The translations under genes and the position numbers were made by a program. A stretch of DNA of 62,679 nt, filler included, from a bacterium (lineage in GTDB: Bacteria; JAMORN01), in assembly GCA_027063545.1 (NCBI GenBank). It is 19 parts of 19 records of this genome, joined end to end, with 100 filler letters (N's around TTAATTAATTAA, not from the genome) between each part and the next. Parts side by side here need not be neighbours in the genome. Positions count along the whole stretch, not along the records: positions 8,753 to 11,004 come from JAMORN010000005.1; 18 more parts are not named here. One strand, given 5' to 3'. Positions 1 through 58,248 of this stretch are shown in pieces. The first letter of the stretch is position 1. Each line of letters starts with the position of its first letter. Below the pieces are notes generated by a model that was not told the origin of the DNA, did not search any database, and was given only the letters and a program-made list of their open reading frames with translations.

Positions 1-474
1 GGATATGTATATCTTATGTTACCTTTATATCTTCTTATAAAAGGTGATGTAATAGCAAGAGCTATAGGATTTGGTTATCATTTTATTTTATTTTATACCT
101 TAATTATATGGATTAATGATACTATGGCTTATTTTTCTGGAAGACTTTTGGGTAAACATCACTTTTCTTTTATTAGTCCTAAAAAAACAATAGAAGGTGT
201 AATAGGGGGGGTGTTATTTTCTATAATATTTTCTATAATTTATCACTATTATTTTAATTTTTTAAGCTTAAAACATGTAATCATTATAAGCTTTCTTGTT
301 AGCATTATTGCTGTTAGTGGAGACTTATTTGAAAGTGCTTTAAAAAGAGATAAAGGAATTAAAGACTCTAGTAATATTATCCCCGGTCATGGAGGAATAT
401 TAGATAGATTTGATGCTTTTATTTACACAGCTGCTATTTATTATTTATATTTTTATTTATTTTTGTTCTCTTAA
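1..474 (+). CDS. cdsA: Phosphatidate cytidylyltransferase (5' partial)
   Basis: DTMAYFSG, ISPKKTIEG, GDLFESALKR..IKDSS.IIPGHGGILDRFD motifs; frame open from base 1; directly upstream of dxr. Confidence 0.93.
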   Translation, partial: GYVYLMLPLYLLIKGDVIARAIGFGYHFILFYTLIIWINDTMAYFSGRLLGKHHFSFISPKKTIEGVIGGVLFSIIFSIIYHYYFNFLSLKHVIIISFLVSIIAVSGDLFESALKRDKGIKDSSNIIPGHGGILDRFDAFIYTAAIYYLYFYLFLFS

Positions 475-489
475 AAAATGGAATAAGAT

Positions 490-1559
490 ATGAAGAGAAA
501 AATAGCAATTCTTGGGGCTACAGGTACAATTGGACAAGCTGCTATTGATATAATATCAAAATATCCAGATAAATTTGAAATCTATTCATTAGCAGTAAAT
601 TCTAATATTGATAGATTAAAAGAACTTGTCATAAAATTTAAACCTAAAGAAGTTACTATATTTTCTGAAGAATATTATAATAAATTCAAAGAAGAATTTT
701 CTCCTGAATATAATCTAAAAATTTATCATTCAATTGAAGGTTTAAATATATTAGCATCAAATCCTGAAGTGGACATTGTTATAATTAGTGTAGTGGGTGC
801 TATAGGACTTTATCCTACTATTACTGCTATAAAAAATGAAAAACATGTAGCATTGGCTAATAAAGAAACTCTTGTAATTGGTGGAGAATTAATAAATAAT
901 CTCCTAAATAAATATCCTAAGGCTAAACTTCTTCCTATAGATTCTGAACATTCTGCTATATTACAATGTTTAGAGGCTGCTAATAATAATCCTATAGAAA
1001 AAATAATAATAACTGCAAGTGGTGGACCTTTTGTTGATATAGATAAAAATAAATTTAAAGATATTAGTGTTGAAATGGCTTTAAAACATCCTACTTGGAA
1101 TATGGGTAAGAAAATAACAATAGACTCATCTACATTAATAAATAAAGGTCTAGAAATAATTGAGGCCCACTATTTATTTAATATAGAATATAATAAAATA
1201 GAACCTATTATTCATAGACAAAGTATTATTCATTCTATGGTGGAATTTGAAGATGGAAGTATAATTGCACAATTAAGTATTACTGACATGAAACTACCTA
1301 TTCTTTATGCGTTAACATACCCTAAAAGATATAAAACTAATCTTAAATTAAATCTATATGAAATATCCAAATTAACATTTGAAAAAGTTGATTTTGATAA
1401 ATTCAGAGGATTAAAATTAGCTATAGAGGCTGGCAAAAAAGGTAATATATATACTATTATCTTTAATGCTGCAGATGAAGTAGCAGTAGATGCTTTTTTA
1501 AATAAAAAAATTCGTTATGACCAAATTGTAAATGTTATTGAAGAAACTTTAAATAGTTA
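490..1559 (+). CDS. dxr: 1-deoxy-D-xylulose 5-phosphate reductoisomerase (3' truncated)
   Basis: LGATGTIG, LANKETLV, PIDSEHSA, TASGGPF, HPTWNMGKKITIDSSTLINKGLE motifs. Confidence 0.97.
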
Positions 1560-1659
1560 NNNNNNNNNNNNNNNNNNNNNNNNNNNNNNNNNNNNNNNNN
1601 NNNTTAATTAATTAANNNNNNNNNNNNNNNNNNNNNNNNNNNNNNNNNNNNNNNNNNNN
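1560..1659. other. Artificial contig linker (N44-TTAATTAATTAA-N44); identical 100-nt linkers start at 3933, 6293, 8653, 11005, 13353, 15681, 29020, 31324, 33627, 35925, 42051, 49209, 51501, 53790, 56020, 58249, 60467
   Basis: Fixed-length N runs around a 12-mer giving stops in all six frames; genes are cut at each linker. Confidence 0.99.
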
Positions 1660-2315
1660 ATTTAGAATTTATAGGCGAGATGAGGGGCTTAAAAGGAAAA
1701 AAATTAAAAGAGAGAATGGATTATGTTATAGAACTTGTTGGTCTTGAAGAGAATATTAATAAACTAATAGGTCATTTATCAAAAGGATTTAAGCAAAGGG
1801 TTGGAATAGCCCAAAGTATTCTTCATGATCCAGATATTTTAATCTTAGATGAACCAACAGTTGGTCTTGATCCTAACCAAGTAATTGAAATAAGAAATTT
1901 AATAAAAGAAATAGGAAAAGAAAAAACAGTAATTCTTAGTTCTCATATACTTTCAGAGGTAGAGGCAACAACAAATAGAGTGGTTATAATAAATAAAGGA
2001 GAACTTGTTGCTCAAGGAACACCAGAAGAACTTGTTCAGACAATATCAGAAGGAGAGTATTTTATTGTAGAACTAGAAGGTGAGGATAAATCAGAAATAG
2101 AAAATAGGTTTAAAAGTTTTTCAGATATAAAAAGTTATAAGATTGAAAAGCAAGAAGAAGGGTGGTTTAGAATAACCTTATATCCAAAAAGAAAAGATAA
2201 AAATAATGGTAAATTAATATTTGAATTTATAAAAGATAATAATCTAATAATAAGAGAACTTAGACGTGAGGTAATAGATTTAGAGGACATATTTGTTCAA
2301 TTAACAAAAAACTAA
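1660..2315 (+). CDS. ABC transporter ATP-binding subunit, GldA-like (5' partial; N-terminal half at 49309-49731)
   Basis: LSKGFKQRVG signature, ILILDEPTVGLDP Walker B, SSHILSEVE H-loop. Confidence 0.9.
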
Positions 2316-2330
2316 AAATGGAGTAAGGAT

Positions 2331-3062
2331 ATGAAGAATGTAATAGATTCAACCTTATGGACTTTATTTAAAAAGGAGTTAAAAACCTATTTTATTCTTC
2401 CTATAGCATATATATTTATAACTACATATATAGTGGTTAATTTTTATCTATTTTTTAAATCATTTTTTGTTGTTAATCAAGCAGATATGAGGCAGTTTTT
2501 TGAACTTCAACCAATAATGCTTCTGTTTTTTATTCCTGCTTTAACAATGAGGCTATGGGCAGAAGAGAAGAAAGAAGGTACATTTGAATATTTAATGACT
2601 CTTCCTTCTAATGAATGGAATTTTATTTTAGGAAAGTTTTTTTCATCATGGGTATTTATGTTAATAGTAATATTTTTTACACTGCCTCTTTATATTACAG
2701 TAAGTATTTTAGGAAATCCAGATCATGGAGTAATAATAGCAAGTTATATTGGCTTAATTCTTCTATCAGGTAGTTATATATCAATAGGACTTTTTATATC
2801 TTCATTAACATACAATCAAATAGTTAGTTTTATTTTAAGTGTTGTAGTACTATTCTCTTTATGGATAATAGGTGAGAAGATTGTTTTATATACAGTTCCA
2901 AGTTCTATTGCAAATATTTTAGAGTATGTAGGATTAGGTAGTCATTATGATAGTCTTCAAAGAGGAGTGATAGATTTAAGGGATATTGTATATTATTTAT
3001 CTGTTATGGTTTTATTTCTATTCTTAAATAAGTTAAGTTTAGAAACAAGAAAATGGGAGTAG
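2331..3062 (+). CDS. ABC-2 permease, GldF-like
   Basis: Multi-TM protein; PALTMRLWAEEKKEGTFEYLMTLP and RGVIDLRDIVYY motifs. Confidence 0.85.
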   Translation: MKNVIDSTLWTLFKKELKTYFILPIAYIFITTYIVVNFYLFFKSFFVVNQADMRQFFELQPIMLLFFIPALTMRLWAEEKKEGTFEYLMTLPSNEWNFILGKFFSSWVFMLIVIFFTLPLYITVSILGNPDHGVIIASYIGLILLSGSYISIGLFISSLTYNQIVSFILSVVVLFSLWIIGEKIVLYTVPSSIANILEYVGLGSHYDSLQRGVIDLRDIVYYLSVMVLFLFLNKLSLETRKWE

Positions 3063-3066
3063 AGAT

Positions 3067-3932
3067 ATGGAATATAGAAGAGAAAATAAAAAGATAATAA
3101 GGCTTTTAGATTTAATAATCTTACTTTTGGTACTTTTTATCATAAACTTCTTTGTTTATAATAATTCAAAAAGAATTGATCTAACAAGTACAAAGTTCTA
3201 TACACTTTCAAAAGGAACAAAAAATATTCTCTCTCAACTTGATGATAGGGTAAATATTATCTGTTATTTCTCAAAGAATCTTCCACCTTATTTAAAGGTT
3301 ATGGAGAAAGATATAAAGGATATATTAGATGAATATAGAATAGCATCAAAGGGTAAAGTTATAGTTAAGTTTATAGATCCAGAGATAGACAAAAATACAG
3401 AAAACAAAGCAAAAGGTTATGGTATTCCTAAGATTCAAATGAATTATTTTGATAATGAAAAAATAGAGGTTAAACAGGGGTATTTAGGTATTGTAATTTT
3501 GTATAAGGATAAGCATGAGGTTATACCTGTTGTTAGTAGTATAGAAAATTTAGAGTATGAACTTTCTTCAAAGATTAAAAAACTTATGAGAAAAAATCCT
3601 ATAGAGATTGGATATTTAAACTTAGATGGTTCTCCAAAAATGGAAAAGCCTTCTTGGACAAACCCTAATCCTAAGGGAGGCCCCCTTTCTATTTTAAAAG
3701 ATTTTATAGAAAAGAATTATAAACTTGTTATTTTAGATAAACACAATAAAAATGGTATTCCATCTAGTATAAAAACTCTTATTATAGTAAATCCTAAAAC
3801 AATAGATGATAGAACACTTTTTGAGATTGACCAATTTCTTCTTTCGGGAGGAAATTTGATTATCTTTGATAATAGTTTTGTAAGGAATGGTATTCAAGGT
3901 GTTGTAAAAACAAATAACTTAAATAGATTATT
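3067..3932 (+). CDS. GldG-like ABC auxiliary component (3' truncated)
   Basis: N-terminal TM, RIDLT..KFYTLS..TK, LEYELSSKI, EIDQFLLSGGNLII motifs. Confidence 0.85.
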
Positions 3933-8752: not shown

Positions 8753-10870
8753 CTGATTAAAACAGATGAATATGGTGACAATAAATATGGTCAAAGTGTT
8801 AATGATTTGTACATACATTTATATGAAAAAAAATATCAATTTTCAATAAGACATAAACCTAATATAGTATTAGTAAAAGAAAAATATAAATATGAAAAAT
8901 ATTTTATTGCTTCTATTTTTGGTCAATTTCTTGAAGATAAAGAATTTGACTATTTTGAAGAAAATTTTAATGAAATATTTGAACCAAATGAGATAACCTT
9001 AGATGGTAAATCATTAGCTGAACTTTATTCAAATCATTATTTTACACCTTTAGATATTGGACATGCAAAAATAGATATAAACTCTCATGAAAAAACTCCT
9101 GACCCTCGGTTATTTATACTCGATATTAAAGAGACTAAAGATTTAATAGATTTTTGGAATTTAAGAATTATTTATAGAGAAATAATACCTATTCCTAAAC
9201 AATGGATAGAAGAACTTTCTTCTTTCTGCAAAAATTTTATAAAAAAACATTATCGTCCATCTCCCTGGCAAAAAGATTATATGTTTCATTCTACTACAAT
9301 GTTTTCTCGATCTATTTCAGAAGAAAAAGCAAAAAATATTTATAAAGATTATATTGAAGTAGATATTCAAGGAGCAAATCATATACAATATTGGTATCCA
9401 AATATTCAAATACAGAAATCTAATTGGGTTGCTAGATTCAGAAGACCTATATTAAAATACGATGAAGTAAAAAAAGAAATAAACTTATCTGAAAGTGATA
9501 ATAATCAGATTTATTTTGATACATTATCTCCTGACTTTGCAAAAAAATATGATAATAAAATTCGTTGGGCAAATGTTATAAATATTGAAGATAGAAGTTT
9601 TAAAAATAAAATAGCTACTAATTTTCCTACCAATTATAGAGATCCTATTTTTCCAAAATTTAATTTTTATAGAGAGCTTTTACTTCCCACTACCGAAGGG
9701 TTAACTATATTTCCTGAATATATCAATGAAACCCATAGATGGAGATTAGAAAATGGAACAAAAACCATTAATCAATGGTTAGATAAATATAACATAAAAG
9801 CAGTTGTATCTGATGCCGGAAAAGCTACACAACAAATTATTGATACTATTGGTGGAGTAGCACAGGTATTTAGTCTAACAAATAAAAATGTTATTGAACA
9901 ACTTAATAAAATGGCGAATACCCCGTTAACAAGAAGTTTTCAAATCAATAAATTTGAAAATGAAATTAATAAGAATATAAAAAAAAGCCCATATGGACAT
10001 ACTCGTTCGGAGATATTAGTTTCACAAAAAATTGTTGAACTTGGCTTAGAGCTAAAGTGTTCTAAATGTGACAGTTGGAATTGGTATGCATTAAATAGTC
10101 TTGATTATAACTTAACATGTAACAGATGTTTAAAAGAATTTAATTTTCCTGTTACTAAACCAACAAAATCTGATTTTTCAAGATGGGCATATAGAGTTAT
10201 TGGAGCTTTTGCTTTACCCGATTATGCAAGAGGAGGCTATGCTGCATCTTTGGCTATTCACTTTTTTGAACGAAATATTGGGTTTTCTAATGATTTAACT
10301 ATTACTTGGTCAGGTGGACAAGAATTAACACTAAAATCAGGAGAAAAAGCTGAATCTGATTTTATTCTTTGGACTCAAAAAAAAGAAATTCTTGATTTGC
10401 ATAAGTCCACAGACATAGTATTTGGAGAAGCAAAAAGTTTCGCTAAAGATGCATTCAAAGATTCTGATATACAAAAAATGAAATTACTTGCTGAAACATT
10501 TCCAAAATCAATACTTGTTTTTGCAACAATGAAAGAATTTAAAGATTTTTCAGATGATGAAATTAATAGATTAAAAGAGTTAGCAGAATGGGGACGAGGT
10601 TATGATAATAAAAATAAAGAAATAAGAGCCTATATTATGATATTAACAGGCTTAGAACTTTTTATAGATGATTATGGTGGACTTTCAAGAACTTGGGAAC
10701 AAAAAGGTGGAAAACATCAAGAATTAATTACATCTTCCGCAACCAAATATAATATTCATAATTTAAAATTTTTAGCTGAGCTAACTCAACAAATATATTT
10801 AGATATGCCATCTTATTATGATGGATTATATATACAAAATAGACAACAAAACCTAGCACCGAACAGGTAA
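8753..10870 (+). CDS. Large uncharacterised protein (>=705 aa, 5' partial) with C4 Zn ribbon and C-terminal PD-(D/E)xK-like nuclease motif
   Basis: Frame open from contig start; CSKC-x16-CNRC; ESDFILW...IVFGEAKS. Confidence 0.7.
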   Translation: MIKTDEYGDNKYGQSVNDLYIHLYEKKYQFSIRHKPNIVLVKEKYKYEKYFIASIFGQFLEDKEFDYFEENFNEIFEPNEITLDGKSLAELYSNHYFTPLDIGHAKIDINSHEKTPDPRLFILDIKETKDLIDFWNLRIIYREIIPIPKQWIEELSSFCKNFIKKHYRPSPWQKDYMFHSTTMFSRSISEEKAKNIYKDYIEVDIQGANHIQYWYPNIQIQKSNWVARFRRPILKYDEVKKEINLSESDNNQIYFDTLSPDFAKKYDNKIRWANVINIEDRSFKNKIATNFPTNYRDPIFPKFNFYRELLLPTTEGLTIFPEYINETHRWRLENGTKTINQWLDKYNIKAVVSDAGKATQQIIDTIGGVAQVFSLTNKNVIEQLNKMANTPLTRSFQINKFENEINKNIKKSPYGHTRSEILVSQKIVELGLELKCSKCDSWNWYALNSLDYNLTCNRCLKEFNFPVTKPTKSDFSRWAYRVIGAFALPDYARGGYAASLAIHFFERNIGFSNDLTITWSGGQELTLKSGEKAESDFILWTQKKEILDLHKSTDIVFGEAKSFAKDAFKDSDIQKMKLLAETFPKSILVFATMKEFKDFSDDEINRLKELAEWGRGYDNKNKEIRAYIMILTGLELFIDDYGGLSRTWEQKGGKHQELITSSATKYNIHNLKFLAELTQQIYLDMPSYYDGLYIQNRQQNLAPNR

Positions 10871-10897
10871 ACCTGTCGGTGAAGTCAGTCGTTGCTC
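10841..10897 (+). mobile_element. Putative integron attC recombination site (57 bp)
   Basis: R'' AGACAAC, 5-nt spacer, L'' CTAGCACC (8 nt), stem GAACAGGT-AA-ACCTGTC with one extra A, L' GGTGAAG (7 nt), 6-nt spacer, R' GTTGCTC. Confidence 0.65.
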
Positions 10898-10921
10898 TGG
10901 ACGCTACGCATCCAGCCCAAC

Positions 10922-10950
10922 TTGACAAAACAATCAAATAATATTAAAAT
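10922..10950 (+). promoter_or_regulatory. Sigma70-type promoter TTGACA-N17-TAAAAT
   Basis: Consensus -35, 17-nt spacer, near-consensus -10. Confidence 0.5.
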
Positions 10951-11104
10951 ACATTGTATATATAAAAGTATTAGGATATAAATGTGTTTAAAAGTAAAAC
11001 TATANNNNNNNNNNNNNNNNNNNNNNNNNNNNNNNNNNNNNNNNNNNNTTAATTAATTAANNNNNNNNNNNNNNNNNNNNNNNNNNNNNNNNNNNNNNNN
11101 NNNN

Positions 11105-15452: not shown

Positions 15453-15680
15453 ATGGAAATATACTTTAAAGATAAAAAAATAGCAAAGATATTTAATAGT
15501 AAAAAAGAACTTATAAAAAAATACGGGAATAATATAGGTAAGAAAATTATGCAAAGATTAGATGATATGAAGGCAGCAAAAAATTTAGAAGAGTTAATGA
15601 CCCTTCCCGGCAATCATCATCCTTTAAGAGGTGATAGAGAAGGACAGTTTGCGTGTAGTGTAGGACAACCTTATAGATTA
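15453..15680 (+). CDS. HigB-type (RelE/ParE superfamily) toxin (3' truncated)
   Basis: MEIYFKDKKI...KKYG....KKI.QRL..M.AA.NL..L...PG.HHPL.GDREGQFA.SV.QPYRL. Confidence 0.85.
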
Positions 15681-56119: not shown

Positions 56120-56173
56120 TTTTAAAACTCTTATTACTTCTAAAGCTATGAGCTGGGTTTTAGGGTTAGTCAT
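56120..56173 (-). CDS. Probable type II restriction endonuclease N-terminus, TdeIII/MjaII-like (3' truncated)
   Basis: ATGA overlap with AIPR stop; MTNPKTQLIALEVIRVLK; only 18 codons visible. Confidence 0.4.
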
Positions 56174-57903
56174 TGCTTTTGAATAGAATTTATAATTATA
56201 TCTTTGGTTTCTACTTTATATAACTGCTTTTGATCTAAATAGTTTACTCCACTGTTTTTAATGAAAAGTGTTGCATAATGAACATACTTTAGAAAATTTT
56301 CTTCTTTACTTATTACATTAAACATATCTTCACAGTATTTATCTATTTTTTTACTTCTTAAATCTGGAATTTCCTTTCCATAAATATAAGGAATCAGCAT
56401 TAAAATATGAAATTTAGATTTTCTAAAACTTTTATCTAATTTTCCCCTATTAAAAGCTTGCATTAATTTAAAGAATATAAAACTACTTAGGTAATATGGA
56501 TAAGGTCTGTGCTCTTTATTGAAAATATCTTTTCCAAATCTTTTCGTCAATTTTCCATAATATCCTGATGCTTCATGTGGTAATCCTAAAAACATAGAAG
56601 CAAATGTTTTAGCTTGTGTTTTCATATCAATTATTCTGTTTTTTTGAACATCTTGATATAGATATTGATTTTTTCTTCTTTCATAATAAAGTTTTTCTTT
56701 TACTTTTTTATTCATTGCCTCATAAAAATCTTCTAGAATTTTTTGAAAATCTGATAAAGCTGACAATTCCTCTTTATCTATTCTAGTTTGGTTATTTGTG
56801 GCCTTGATAATATCATTCTTTATTAAATCATTTTTCGTAGAGATAAATTTGATAGGTATATATACATTTTTAATTCTTTCATCTTCCTTAAATTCATAAA
56901 GAATATGTGTAGTCTGACAACCATTAACTATTTGAAAATTTTTAAGGTATAAACTCCTTCTTTTGTAATTAAGATCTTCAGATACTATAGTTAATCCATT
57001 ATTTAAGACAGGAAAATTTCTATGTTTTTCACTTTCTAAAGTCATTTTTATTTCTGAATTAACATCATTGAAACCTAAAAAATCTCTTGGGTTATCATAG
57101 AATAAAATAGAACCTCTGAAGTTTCCTTGCTCGTCTTCTATAATTTTTAAAAATTCTTTAAATGAAATAAATCCTAAATAAGCATCTTCTATATCATCCA
57201 TTTGAGGAAATGGAAGAAGATCATCTACATAGATGGTAACTTCTATATTTTTATTTGTTTTATCATAAAATCTTTTAATATCAGGAAGTCTCCAAATTTC
57301 TAAATCAAAACTGCCCATATTTTGAAATATATTAGAAAAGTAACCTTTAGTATCATTTTCTAATTTCTCTTTATCATTATCATTTATATTTGACAGTGTT
57401 GCATAAATAGCTTTTATTTGAATATTTTTTATTTTACCCATATAAAATTTAAAGATAGAGGATATAATTTCACGAAAATTTTTTACCTTTTGATTTTCAT
57501 TGGTTAACTCTTTGTCTAATTCAAGAATTTTGCCTAAACCAACTAAGAAGTGATTTATTTCGCTATTTTCTATTTTTTCTGAACTTTTCACTTGTGTGGA
57601 AATAATTTTTATATCAAATTTATCATAACTTTCTGCAAATTCTTCTAAAACATCTACAGTATCTACAACTTTCCCATTAATTATGACTGCTAATCCATCC
57701 ACAGATTCTGTATTTTCTACATTTAGATTATCTAGAACCTCCCAAGAAATTATGTCATCCGTATTTAAAGATAATGCTATATAGTTTATTAAATATTCAA
57801 GCTTTTTTGCAAAGTCTTTATTTGCATCCCTATCAAAACTAAAGTCTGTCATATCAAATTTTTTTAGAAAATCGTTAATCAAACCTTCTATAATTACTTT
57901 CAT
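56170..57903 (-). CDS. AIPR family protein
   Basis: LFYDNPRDFLG..VN.EI..TL, FPVLNNGLTIV, NFQIVNGCQT, KATNNQT, YYERR. Confidence 0.88.
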   Translation of the reverse strand: MKVIIEGLINDFLKKFDMTDFSFDRDANKDFAKKLEYLINYIALSLNTDDIISWEVLDNLNVENTESVDGLAVIINGKVVDTVDVLEEFAESYDKFDIKIISTQVKSSEKIENSEINHFLVGLGKILELDKELTNENQKVKNFREIISSIFKFYMGKIKNIQIKAIYATLSNINDNDKEKLENDTKGYFSNIFQNMGSFDLEIWRLPDIKRFYDKTNKNIEVTIYVDDLLPFPQMDDIEDAYLGFISFKEFLKIIEDEQGNFRGSILFYDNPRDFLGFNDVNSEIKMTLESEKHRNFPVLNNGLTIVSEDLNYKRRSLYLKNFQIVNGCQTTHILYEFKEDERIKNVYIPIKFISTKNDLIKNDIIKATNNQTRIDKEELSALSDFQKILEDFYEAMNKKVKEKLYYERRKNQYLYQDVQKNRIIDMKTQAKTFASMFLGLPHEASGYYGKLTKRFGKDIFNKEHRPYPYYLSSFIFFKLMQAFNRGKLDKSFRKSKFHILMLIPYIYGKEIPDLRSKKIDKYCEDMFNVISKEENFLKYVHYATLFIKNSGVNYLDQKQLYKVETKDIIINSIQKQ

Positions 57904-57904
57904 C

Positions 57905-58248
57905 TCATAACCTACCTATCACAAAAATACTCTCATAATAAGCGTTTTTATCCCTTGATGTTCTATTTAATACTGGTCTTTTGTATTCTTTTATTATTTT
58001 TAAACCGCTTTTTTTTGCTATTTCAGGATATAGATTAAACTCATCATTTGCAACTATAAATATTTGTGGATTATCAACCATATACTTTAAACAATTTCTT
58101 AAAACCTGTGAGATACCTTCTATATAACTTTCTCTTGCTTCTTTGCCTTTTCCTTTGTATAAAGGACCTATTTCAAGTTCATCTCTTCTCTGTATTCCAA
58201 AAAGCTCGTAAGCATAAGCATGTTGCTCGTGGTAGTCTATTTGCCCAA
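57905..58248 (-). CDS. DNA methyltransferase C-terminal part (5' partial; absent from ORF track)
   Basis: 114 open codons GQIDYHEQHAYAYELFG...IFIVANDEFNLYPEIA..SGL.I..EYKRPVLNRT..D...YYESIF; recognised from memory as the segment following an SPPY motif. Confidence 0.65.

What the first reader, a model, noticed from the sequence alone, without database searches (positions are those of the whole stretch)
8753..10897. Candidate integron cassette encoding a large Zn-ribbon plus PD-(D/E)xK nuclease protein (possible undescribed defence gene)
Seen: a >=705-aa ORF I cannot assign to a named family. It carries CxxC-x16-CxxC (about 10058-10129) and an E-S-D...G-E-A-K motif (about 10352-10435), and its stop codon lies in the loop of an attC-like hairpin. 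Established: cassette ORFs often end inside attC, PD-(D/E)xK domains are common anti-phage effectors, and integron cassettes are known to carry phage-defence genes. Inference: a single-gene sensor-nuclease defence cassette, unusually long for a cassette. This is the best candidate for a new system in the window. The N-terminus and any integrase are off-contig.
Basis: partly seen in the sequence, partly recalled or inferred. Interest (0 to 1): 0.72.

Follow-up and report, generated by a model that had tools for sequence, protein, structure and literature searches.

The report
Oversized integron cassette, unnamed nuclease family
This is a mobile integron gene cassette, about six times the usual gene size, carrying one gene from a widespread unnamed family whose predicted DNA-cutting half resembles CRISPR helper nucleases and whose other half matches no known sensor, so it is likely an undescribed single-gene defence against phages.

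Summary
Observation confirmed. The ORF is residues 105-809 of an 809-aa protein. Its stop lies in the loop of a 57-bp attC (10841-10897). Near-identical copies switch neighbours exactly at G|TT on both sides, giving a 2,491-bp cassette.

The family is large (803 clusters at E<=1e-30) with no significant Pfam, PADLOC or NCBIfam match. Four Cys and E638/D640/E663/K665 are near-invariant. The predicted C-terminal half matches the post-CARF part of Cdn1/Card1/Can2 (Z 9-10). The three-lobed N-terminal half matches nothing specifically.

Homologues have no fixed partner and are enriched beside defence genes (16 of 65 loci vs 2 of 38 controls).

Two corrections: the family is mostly not cassette-borne (0 of 67 complete genome loci), and the contig may be misbinned (no IntI, coverage does not follow the host).

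Best reading: an untested single-gene defence nuclease (about 0.7), probably gated by its N-terminal module (about 0.4).

The parts
8753..10870 (+). 3' 705 codons of an 809-aa single-gene ORF (residues 105-809); 5' end cut by the contig edge
   Evidence: full gene in L082
8753..9415 (+). In-window part of the predicted three-lobed alpha/beta N-terminal module (residues about 10-325); putative sensor, no specific fold match
   Evidence: AlphaFold models; fold searches
9443..9745 (+). Predicted beta-rich domain (residues about 335-435), unassigned and barely tested by the fold searches
9749..10210 (+). Predicted helical/beta-hairpin segment aligning with the extra pre-nuclease motif of Can2/Card1, carrying the zinc ribbon
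   Evidence: Can2 description in PMC7969007
10058..10129 (+). CxxC-x16-CxxC zinc ribbon (C540, C543, C560, C563)
   Evidence: 130 of 130 conserved
10223..10810 (+). Predicted PD-(D/E)xK nuclease core; catalytic E638, D640, E663, K665 at 10352-10435
10841..10897 (+). attC site, 57 bp; ORF reads into its left arm and stops in the loop; crossover G|TT at 10891/10892
10891..11004 (+). Start of the next element after the crossover: a 31-nt hairpin, then a sigma-70-like promoter (10922-10950, 11 of 12 matches); very high depth in metagenomes; not part of this cassette

Best explanation
The gene is a complete one-gene integron cassette that likely encodes a stand-alone anti-phage or anti-plasmid nuclease, predicted to stay switched off until its N-terminal module detects infection. 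Shown: cassette boundaries and reshuffling, the 809-aa ORF, the conserved zinc ribbon and E-x-D...E-x-K set, no cognate methylase or partner gene, and enrichment of homologues beside defence genes. Predicted: a Can2/Card1-type nuclease half whose CARF sensor is replaced by a three-lobed alpha/beta module plus a beta domain. Inferred: because the cassette moves alone between hosts without a methylase or antitoxin, the nuclease must be harmless by default. The simplest arrangement is sensor-effector gating. A phage-derived ligand, or a sign that the host restriction system is blocked, would bind the N-terminal lobes and license DNA cleavage, destroying phage DNA or arresting the infected cell. 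Odds: defence role about 0.7; this gating mechanism in particular about 0.4.
For: Cassette: L082 matches the window through the attC and diverges right after GTT. L082 and L084 share upstream sequence only from a GTT 41 bp before the ATG, and those 7 bases are the exact reverse complement of the R'' box. L084 has a full attC there and a second attC further upstream. Public contigs show many different sequences entering and leaving this attC type. Nuclease: Cdn1 9u49 Z 10.4, rmsd 4.5, 219 aligned (model 396-779 on chain 149-399); Card1 6wxw Z 9.5, rmsd 4.6, 183 aligned; Can2 7bdv Z 9.1, rmsd 5.0, 198 aligned; Foldseek E 3e-4 to Card1. Can2's catalytic pair is E276/D278 (PMC7969007), the same E-x-D spacing as E638/D640. 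Stand-alone: no neighbour family recurs in more than 2 loci among 319 ORFs from 66 loci. Defence context: 16 of 65 loci against 2 of 38 random loci, Fisher one-sided p 0.0097; lenient count 18 of 65 against 4 of 38, p 0.033. RM-type genes lie within 10 kb in 17 of 80 loci, and in 8 of 16 Poribacteria loci the gene sits between hsdM and hsdS. One copy lies in a prophage between portal and terminase genes (L014). The distribution is patchy across many phyla. Integron cassettes carry defence systems 2.2 times more often than expected (10.1101/2024.07.02.601686).
Against: No functional data. About three quarters of loci (49 of 65) have no recognisable defence gene within two genes, and some copies sit among housekeeping genes (Psychrobacter between two methyltransferases, Sulfuricurvum after dnaE). 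The control genomes are not taxon-matched, and I dropped generic hits by judgement in both sets. Fold Z-scores of 9-10 with rmsd 4.5-5 are only moderately above the tool's stated background of 7-8. The N-terminal half has no Foldseek hit at E<=0.001. Its only matches spanning all three lobes are clostridial cell-wall-binding trefoils at Z 7.0-8.3, rmsd 4.3-5.2, so a sensor role is inferred from position alone. No cas or cyclase gene was found among the 218 scanned neighbours, apart from one CBASS E1-E2-like hit at L060, so a cyclic-oligonucleotide trigger has no support.
Confidence: 0.55

Rival explanations
1. It is a type IV-like, modification-dependent restriction endonuclease. The N-terminal lobes or the beta domain read a modified base or sugar on phage DNA and the nuclease cuts nearby, without killing the cell.
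For: No cognate methylase in the cassette. Frequent residence in or beside RM and McrBC loci. The only three-lobe fold matches are CWB2 repeats, which bind a sugar-phosphate polymer (recalled). A weak Atlas lead to an Mrr_cat cluster (score 0.87, family on 15% of members). END nucleases are a precedent for a methylase-free nuclease with a fused modification reader (PMC12191111, abstract).
Against: MspJI and AspBHI score only Z 5.6-5.8. No known modified-base reader appeared among the top 50 rows for the N-terminal model, though that search is inconclusive for absence.
Confidence: 0.22
2. It is a non-defence or selfish accessory nuclease, for example a DNA-repair or recombination helper or a neutral passenger, which was captured into a cassette by chance.
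For: 49 of 65 loci lack a defence neighbour within two genes. The PD-(D/E)xK fold also occurs in repair enzymes (EndoMS comparison in PMC7969007). Sequence is well conserved (about 50% identity across phyla).
Against: No conserved synteny. Sporadic presence: not found in 30 sampled genomes or in E. coli at the DNA level. Defence enrichment. Repeated insertion into type I RM operons.
Confidence: 0.18
3. It is an orphan second-messenger effector, activated like Card1/Can2 by a cyclic oligonucleotide made by a distant type III CRISPR or CBASS system, with the pseudo-three-fold N-terminal module as the receptor.
For: The best structural matches are all cOA-activated effectors.
Against: Those alignments start after the CARF domain (chain residue 139 or later for the top six rows). 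No cas or cyclase neighbours among 218 scanned ORFs. A single mobile cassette could not rely on a specific host cyclase.
Confidence: 0.07

Closest known systems
Card1 / Can2 / Cdn1 / VC1899 (CARF plus PD-(D/E)xK CRISPR ancillary nucleases; PDB 6wxw, 7bdv, 9u49, 1xmx)
   Same: Predicted fold of residues about 396-780 aligns with their post-CARF part, including the extra pre-nuclease motif; E-x-D...E-x-K catalytic spacing.
   Different: No alignment to their CARF domain; twice the length; a zinc ribbon is inserted; no type III CRISPR context; 12-16% identity.
Single-gene defence cassettes of sedentary chromosomal integrons (Epona, Divona, Damona, Shedu cassettes; 10.1101/2024.07.02.601686)
   Same: One gene per cassette, nuclease fused to another domain, ORF ending in attC.
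   Different: Those are described as streamlined and small. This gene is 2,430 nt against a cassette median of 402 nt, sd 308 (PMC7370490). Different domain content by the paper's descriptions; no sequence comparison was made.
Type IV and END modification-dependent nucleases (Mrr, MspJI, END-PaCF1)
   Same: Methylase-free nuclease with a fused partner domain, found near RM and defence genes.
   Different: No recognised reader domain; weak fold scores to MspJI and AspBHI; no Mrr_cat Pfam hit in 54 members.
Restriction-linked accessory nucleases inside type I RM operons (PrrC, RloC; recalled)
   Same: Position inside an hsd operon in 8 of 16 Poribacteria loci.
   Different: PrrC and RloC are ABC-ATPase/HEPN tRNases (recalled). 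This protein shows no ATPase or HEPN match and has a DNase-type fold.

Membership tests
Integron gene cassette | attC with R''/L''/L'/R' boxes, 5- and 6-bp spacers and extrahelical bases directly after the ORF | tested here: met
Integron gene cassette | 5' end begins at G|TT complementary to its own R'' box | tested here: met
   7 of 7 bases complementary in L082 and L084
Integron gene cassette | Neighbours change at the crossover points | tested here: met
   window vs L082 downstream, L082 vs L084 upstream; loose ends in public contigs
Integron gene cassette | Integron integrase and attI in the same genome | tested here: inconclusive
   none over cut-off in G000, which is 82.7% complete; contig may be misbinned
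PD-(D/E)xK nuclease superfamily | Restriction-endonuclease core fold | tested here: met
   predicted model matches Card1/Can2/Cdn1, AF1548 (Z 7.8, rmsd 2.9, 113 aligned) and FokI (Z 7.4)
PD-(D/E)xK nuclease superfamily | Conserved acidic and E-x-K catalytic residues | tested here: met
   128-130 of 130 members
PD-(D/E)xK nuclease superfamily | Metal-dependent cleavage of nucleic acid | not testable with these tools
   needs an assay
Card1/Can2 CARF nucleases | N-terminal CARF domain | tested here: inconclusive
   alignments exclude the CARF region and no CARF protein is among the top 50 rows for the N-terminal model; a family not listed is not excluded
Card1/Can2 CARF nucleases | Linkage to type III CRISPR loci | tested here: not met
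   no type III cas hit among 218 immediate neighbours from 65 loci; only two genes each side were scanned
Known PADLOC 2.0 defence systems | HMM match to a system protein | tested here: not met
   0 families at E<=1 for the 705-aa window protein; the library dates from 2023 and the first 104 residues were not scanned
Type II/IIS restriction-modification | Cognate methyltransferase consistently adjacent | tested here: not met
   the cassette holds one gene; neighbouring methylases are of mixed types (I, II, IIG, III, ISP) and absent from most loci
Type IV modification-dependent restriction | Modified-base reader domain and modification-dependent cleavage | tested here: inconclusive
   no reader fold listed; activity not testable here
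CWB2 cell-wall-binding trefoil (Pfam PF04122, accession recalled) | Three homologous CWB2 repeats | tested here: inconclusive
   weak three-lobe fold match (Z 7.0-8.3); no Pfam hit; no significant repeat between lobes by hhalign

The most novel reading that the evidence does not exclude
This is the first noted member of a large, cross-phylum family of single-protein immune effectors. In it the Card1/Can2 nuclease module has been uncoupled from CRISPR signalling and joined to an undescribed three-lobed receptor, distantly like cell-wall-glycan-binding trefoils, that senses a new infection signal. One vent lineage has loaded it into an integron cassette near the upper size limit for cassette mobility.
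Probability: 0.3. Interest if true: 0.75.

Novelty: new variant of a known kind. Interest (0 to 1): 0.52.

Why it matters
A family of at least 803 sequence clusters across many phyla has no name in the libraries searched, yet carries an intact nuclease and a possible new sensor domain. It can be tested as one 2.4-kb gene. If it protects against phage, its N-terminal module would point to a new infection signal or DNA modification. The locus also offers close cassette and non-cassette versions of one gene (78-86% identical), which bears on how large chromosomal genes become cassettes and lose that state.

Tried and rejected
Library searches with no significant match: Pfam, PADLOC and NCBIfam on the window protein; Pfam on 54 family members, one chance hit; PDB sequences with the family profile; ESM Atlas named clusters for residues 1-330.

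Distribution searches: no homologue in GenBank phages; one in plasmids (Photobacterium, 41%); no DNA match in E. coli genomes using the L042 gene; none in 30 sampled genomes. No fused form of 1,417 aa or more, which is weak evidence. Shorter forms and alternative effectors were not searched.

Structure: no CARF, SRA or PUA-type protein was listed for the N-terminal model, which does not exclude them. Internal repeats between lobes were not significant.

Rejected readings: (1) The hairpin as a REP element or terminator, rejected by the G|TT breakpoints. The second hairpin just downstream belongs to the next element and had no plasmid match. (2) A single origin of the cassette form. The four sequences with the attC read-through tail need at least 3 changes on a quick tree of 41 rows; the careful tree and the clade test did not finish. 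(3) A link between L082's upstream DNA and G000:C68, which is an AT-rich 32-bp match only.

Host and expression: tetranucleotide composition cannot decide the host (19% of G000 pieces are more deviant). No RNA holder was listed.

Literature: searches turned up no description of this family. These are word searches of open-access papers and cannot exclude one. bioRxiv supplements were closed and PMC supplements were not opened; validated-system lists there could contain a homologue. No complex prediction was run.

Full report
Setting. The window is a string of short contigs joined by N-linkers. The finding occupies one whole contig, 8753-11004 (G000:C5, 2,252 bp, 27% GC), so the flanking window genes say nothing about its context. 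G000 is a 1.57-Mb, 355-contig genome, 82.7% complete. The relatives offered by the tool share only the domain with it.

The ORF. The frame is open from 8753 to the stop at 10868-10870 (705 aa) and is residues 105-809 of P0002. Locus L082 holds the full gene in near-identical form. The cysteine and E-S-D...G-E-A-K motifs are at the stated coordinates. In an alignment of 130 sequences (P0002 plus the 129 of the 150 listed representatives that are 750-870 aa long), C540, C543, C560, C563 and D640 are invariant, E638 is kept in 128, and E663 and K665 in 129. The family is large: 2,652 clusters at 50% identity score E<=0.001 and 803 score E<=1e-30. Genome loci come from Campylobacterota, Proteobacteria, Poribacteria, Acidobacteria, Planctomycetes and others. 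Pfam, PADLOC, NCBIfam and PDB sequences give no significant match.

The attC is real. Positions 10841-10897 have the full box-and-spacer geometry at 57 bp, with the stop codon in the loop. It was the only strict hit in the genome. My detector is a pattern plus a folding filter, not IntegronFinder; it did recover plausible attC sites in L084, L066 and L074. The strongest evidence is comparative. L082 matches the window through the site and diverges immediately after GTT. L082 and L084 agree upstream of the ATG only from a GTT 41 bp before it, and those seven bases are the exact reverse complement of the R'' box. L084 has a complete attC at that junction and another further upstream. The cassette in L082 spans 2,491 bp. 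L086 (86% identical protein) has the same left arm with a decayed right arm. In four public runs the gene has depth 3-21, while the attC and downstream bins reach about 90-3,300 with many different loose ends, so this attC type is shared by many cassettes. The 2,430-nt gene compares with a median of 402 nt (sd 308) for metagenomic cassette genes (PMC7370490, passages). Longer cassettes are recovered less efficiently (10.64898/2026.03.17.712381, passages).

Results against a simple reading. First, the family is mostly not cassette-borne. None of 80 genome loci had an attC within -60 to +200 bp of the stop; 67 were complete at the 3' end. Two truncated or short loci (L066, L074) have attC sites upstream. 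Close homologues at 63-78% identity (L083, L085, L087) lack an attC. Four sequences carry the attC read-through tail and do not form one clade on a quick tree. Second, the host is doubtful. G000 has no integrase over cut-off and no second strict attC. The cassette is assembled at depth 21 in X2, 10 in X3 and 3-7 in X4, where G000's gyrA region is at 2-5 in fragments (X2) or has no long piece listed (X3, X4). Only in X1, the possible source run, are the two similar (5.3 against 7.9-9.3). The closest named homologues are Aliarcobacter (80%) and Sulfuricurvum (about 70%). A Campylobacterota carrier with misbinning is therefore plausible but not shown.

Predicted structure. The full-length model is confident (pLDDT 85.6, pTM 0.85). 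Residues about 396-780 align with the post-CARF part of Cdn1 (Z 10.4, rmsd 4.5, 219 residues), Card1 (Z 9.5, rmsd 4.6, 183), Can2 (Z 9.1, rmsd 5.0, 198) and VC1899 (Z 8.6, rmsd 5.1, 213). The nuclease core also matches AF1548 and FokI. Can2 has CARF at 3-151, nuclease at 166-366, catalytic E276/D278 and an extra four-helix, two-strand motif before the core (PMC7969007, passages). The present protein has a corresponding segment with the zinc ribbon set between its two strands (my reading of the model's secondary structure). The N-terminal 435 residues fold confidently on their own (pLDDT 89.4) into alpha/beta lobes plus a beta-rich domain. They give no Foldseek hit at E<=0.001. Single lobes match generic Rossmann-like domains, and the only matches spanning residues 10-310 are C. 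difficile SlpA, Cwp8 and Cwp6 at Z 7.0-8.3, within the tool's background range. This half holds many near-invariant residues (W38-G39-G40, N43, P78-D79, G161, D234, W239-N240), so it is under strong constraint, but its ligand is unknown.

Neighbourhoods. I kept 66 of 80 loci, leaving out 14 of 16 Poribacteria loci to limit redundancy; 65 had flanking ORFs. Among 319 neighbouring ORFs no family recurred in more than two loci. I scanned the 218 ORFs within two genes on either side with PADLOC (150 at E<=1e-8, counted at 1e-12; 68 at E<=1e-20) and the first 150 with Pfam. The control was 141 ORFs around a central gene in 38 arbitrary stretches of other genomes. After dropping generic matches in both sets (ABC ATPases, small-molecule methylases, helicases, sigma-54 activators, a desulfurase, QueC, a transposase, a lone HTH), 16 of 65 test loci and 2 of 38 control loci had a defence neighbour (p 0.0097). 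Counting ambiguous cases gave 18 of 65 and 4 of 38 (p 0.033). Neighbours include type I, II, IIG, III and ISP RM genes, McrBC, AbiE, AbiU2, PD-T4-7, HEC-03 and PDC-S02, S05, S31 and S60. Across all 80 loci, 17 have an RM-type gene within 10 kb, and in 8 of 16 Poribacteria loci the gene lies between hsdM and hsdS on the same strand; these loci are related and not independent. The enrichment is moderate and the control is not taxon-matched.

Mechanism. Shown: a mobile single-gene cassette, conserved catalytic and zinc ligands, no partner gene, and a defence-leaning context. Predicted: a Can2-type nuclease with a different N-terminal module. Inferred: the enzyme is inactive or self-sparing until triggered, since it travels without a methylase or antitoxin. 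I favour gating by the N-terminal module (about 0.4) over direct reading of modified DNA (about 0.22) and over cyclic-oligonucleotide activation (about 0.07). A non-defence role remains at about 0.18.

Known systems and novelty. Defence cassettes in integrons are established and typically small (10.1101/2024.07.02.601686, passages and section 5; 10.1101/2024.07.02.601719, search listing only). Methylase-free nucleases with fused readers are known (PMC12191111, outline and abstract). A word search of the DefensePredictor paper showed nothing on this architecture (PMC13092281, passages). Eight paper searches found no description of the family, but supplements were not seen. Two notes describe much smaller nuclease/zinc-ribbon cassettes in other genomes. 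The kind of system (a single-gene nuclease defence, in a cassette) is known; this family and its N-terminal module appear undescribed. Verdict: new variant of a known kind, function untested, interest 0.52.

Noticed in passing
window 10891-11004: The element after the crossover starts with a 31-nt hairpin and a near-consensus sigma-70 promoter. It reaches depths of 120-1,900 in public vent contigs and also follows other attC variants. It may be a very common promoter-bearing cassette, such as a toxin-antitoxin cassette, or an attC-targeting mobile element.
   Followed up: partly
window 56120-58248: 577-aa AbiU-like protein (E 2.7e-96) directly after the 3' end of a type II methyltransferase.
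   Followed up: no
G000 as a whole: The tool offered no relative closer than the domain level, which suggests a very isolated lineage.
   Followed up: no
L011, L022, L028, L030, L031, L032, L049, L050: In Poribacteria the homologue sits inside type I RM operons, 20-410 bp before hsdS, often with other cargo between it and hsdM.
   Followed up: partly
L014:1746-4136: Homologue inserted on the opposite strand between prophage portal and terminase genes, like a prophage moron.
   Followed up: no
L003, L004, L085: Psychrobacter-type copies sit between two methyltransferase genes that look like a housekeeping tRNA-modification pair (cmoA/cmoB names recalled).
   Followed up: no
L082:1-124: No attC precedes the cassette here, so this junction may be an attI or a secondary insertion site.
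   Followed up: partly
window 15453-15680: Short ORF cut by the contig end that looks like a HigB/RelE-type toxin (resemblance recalled, not searched).
   Followed up: no
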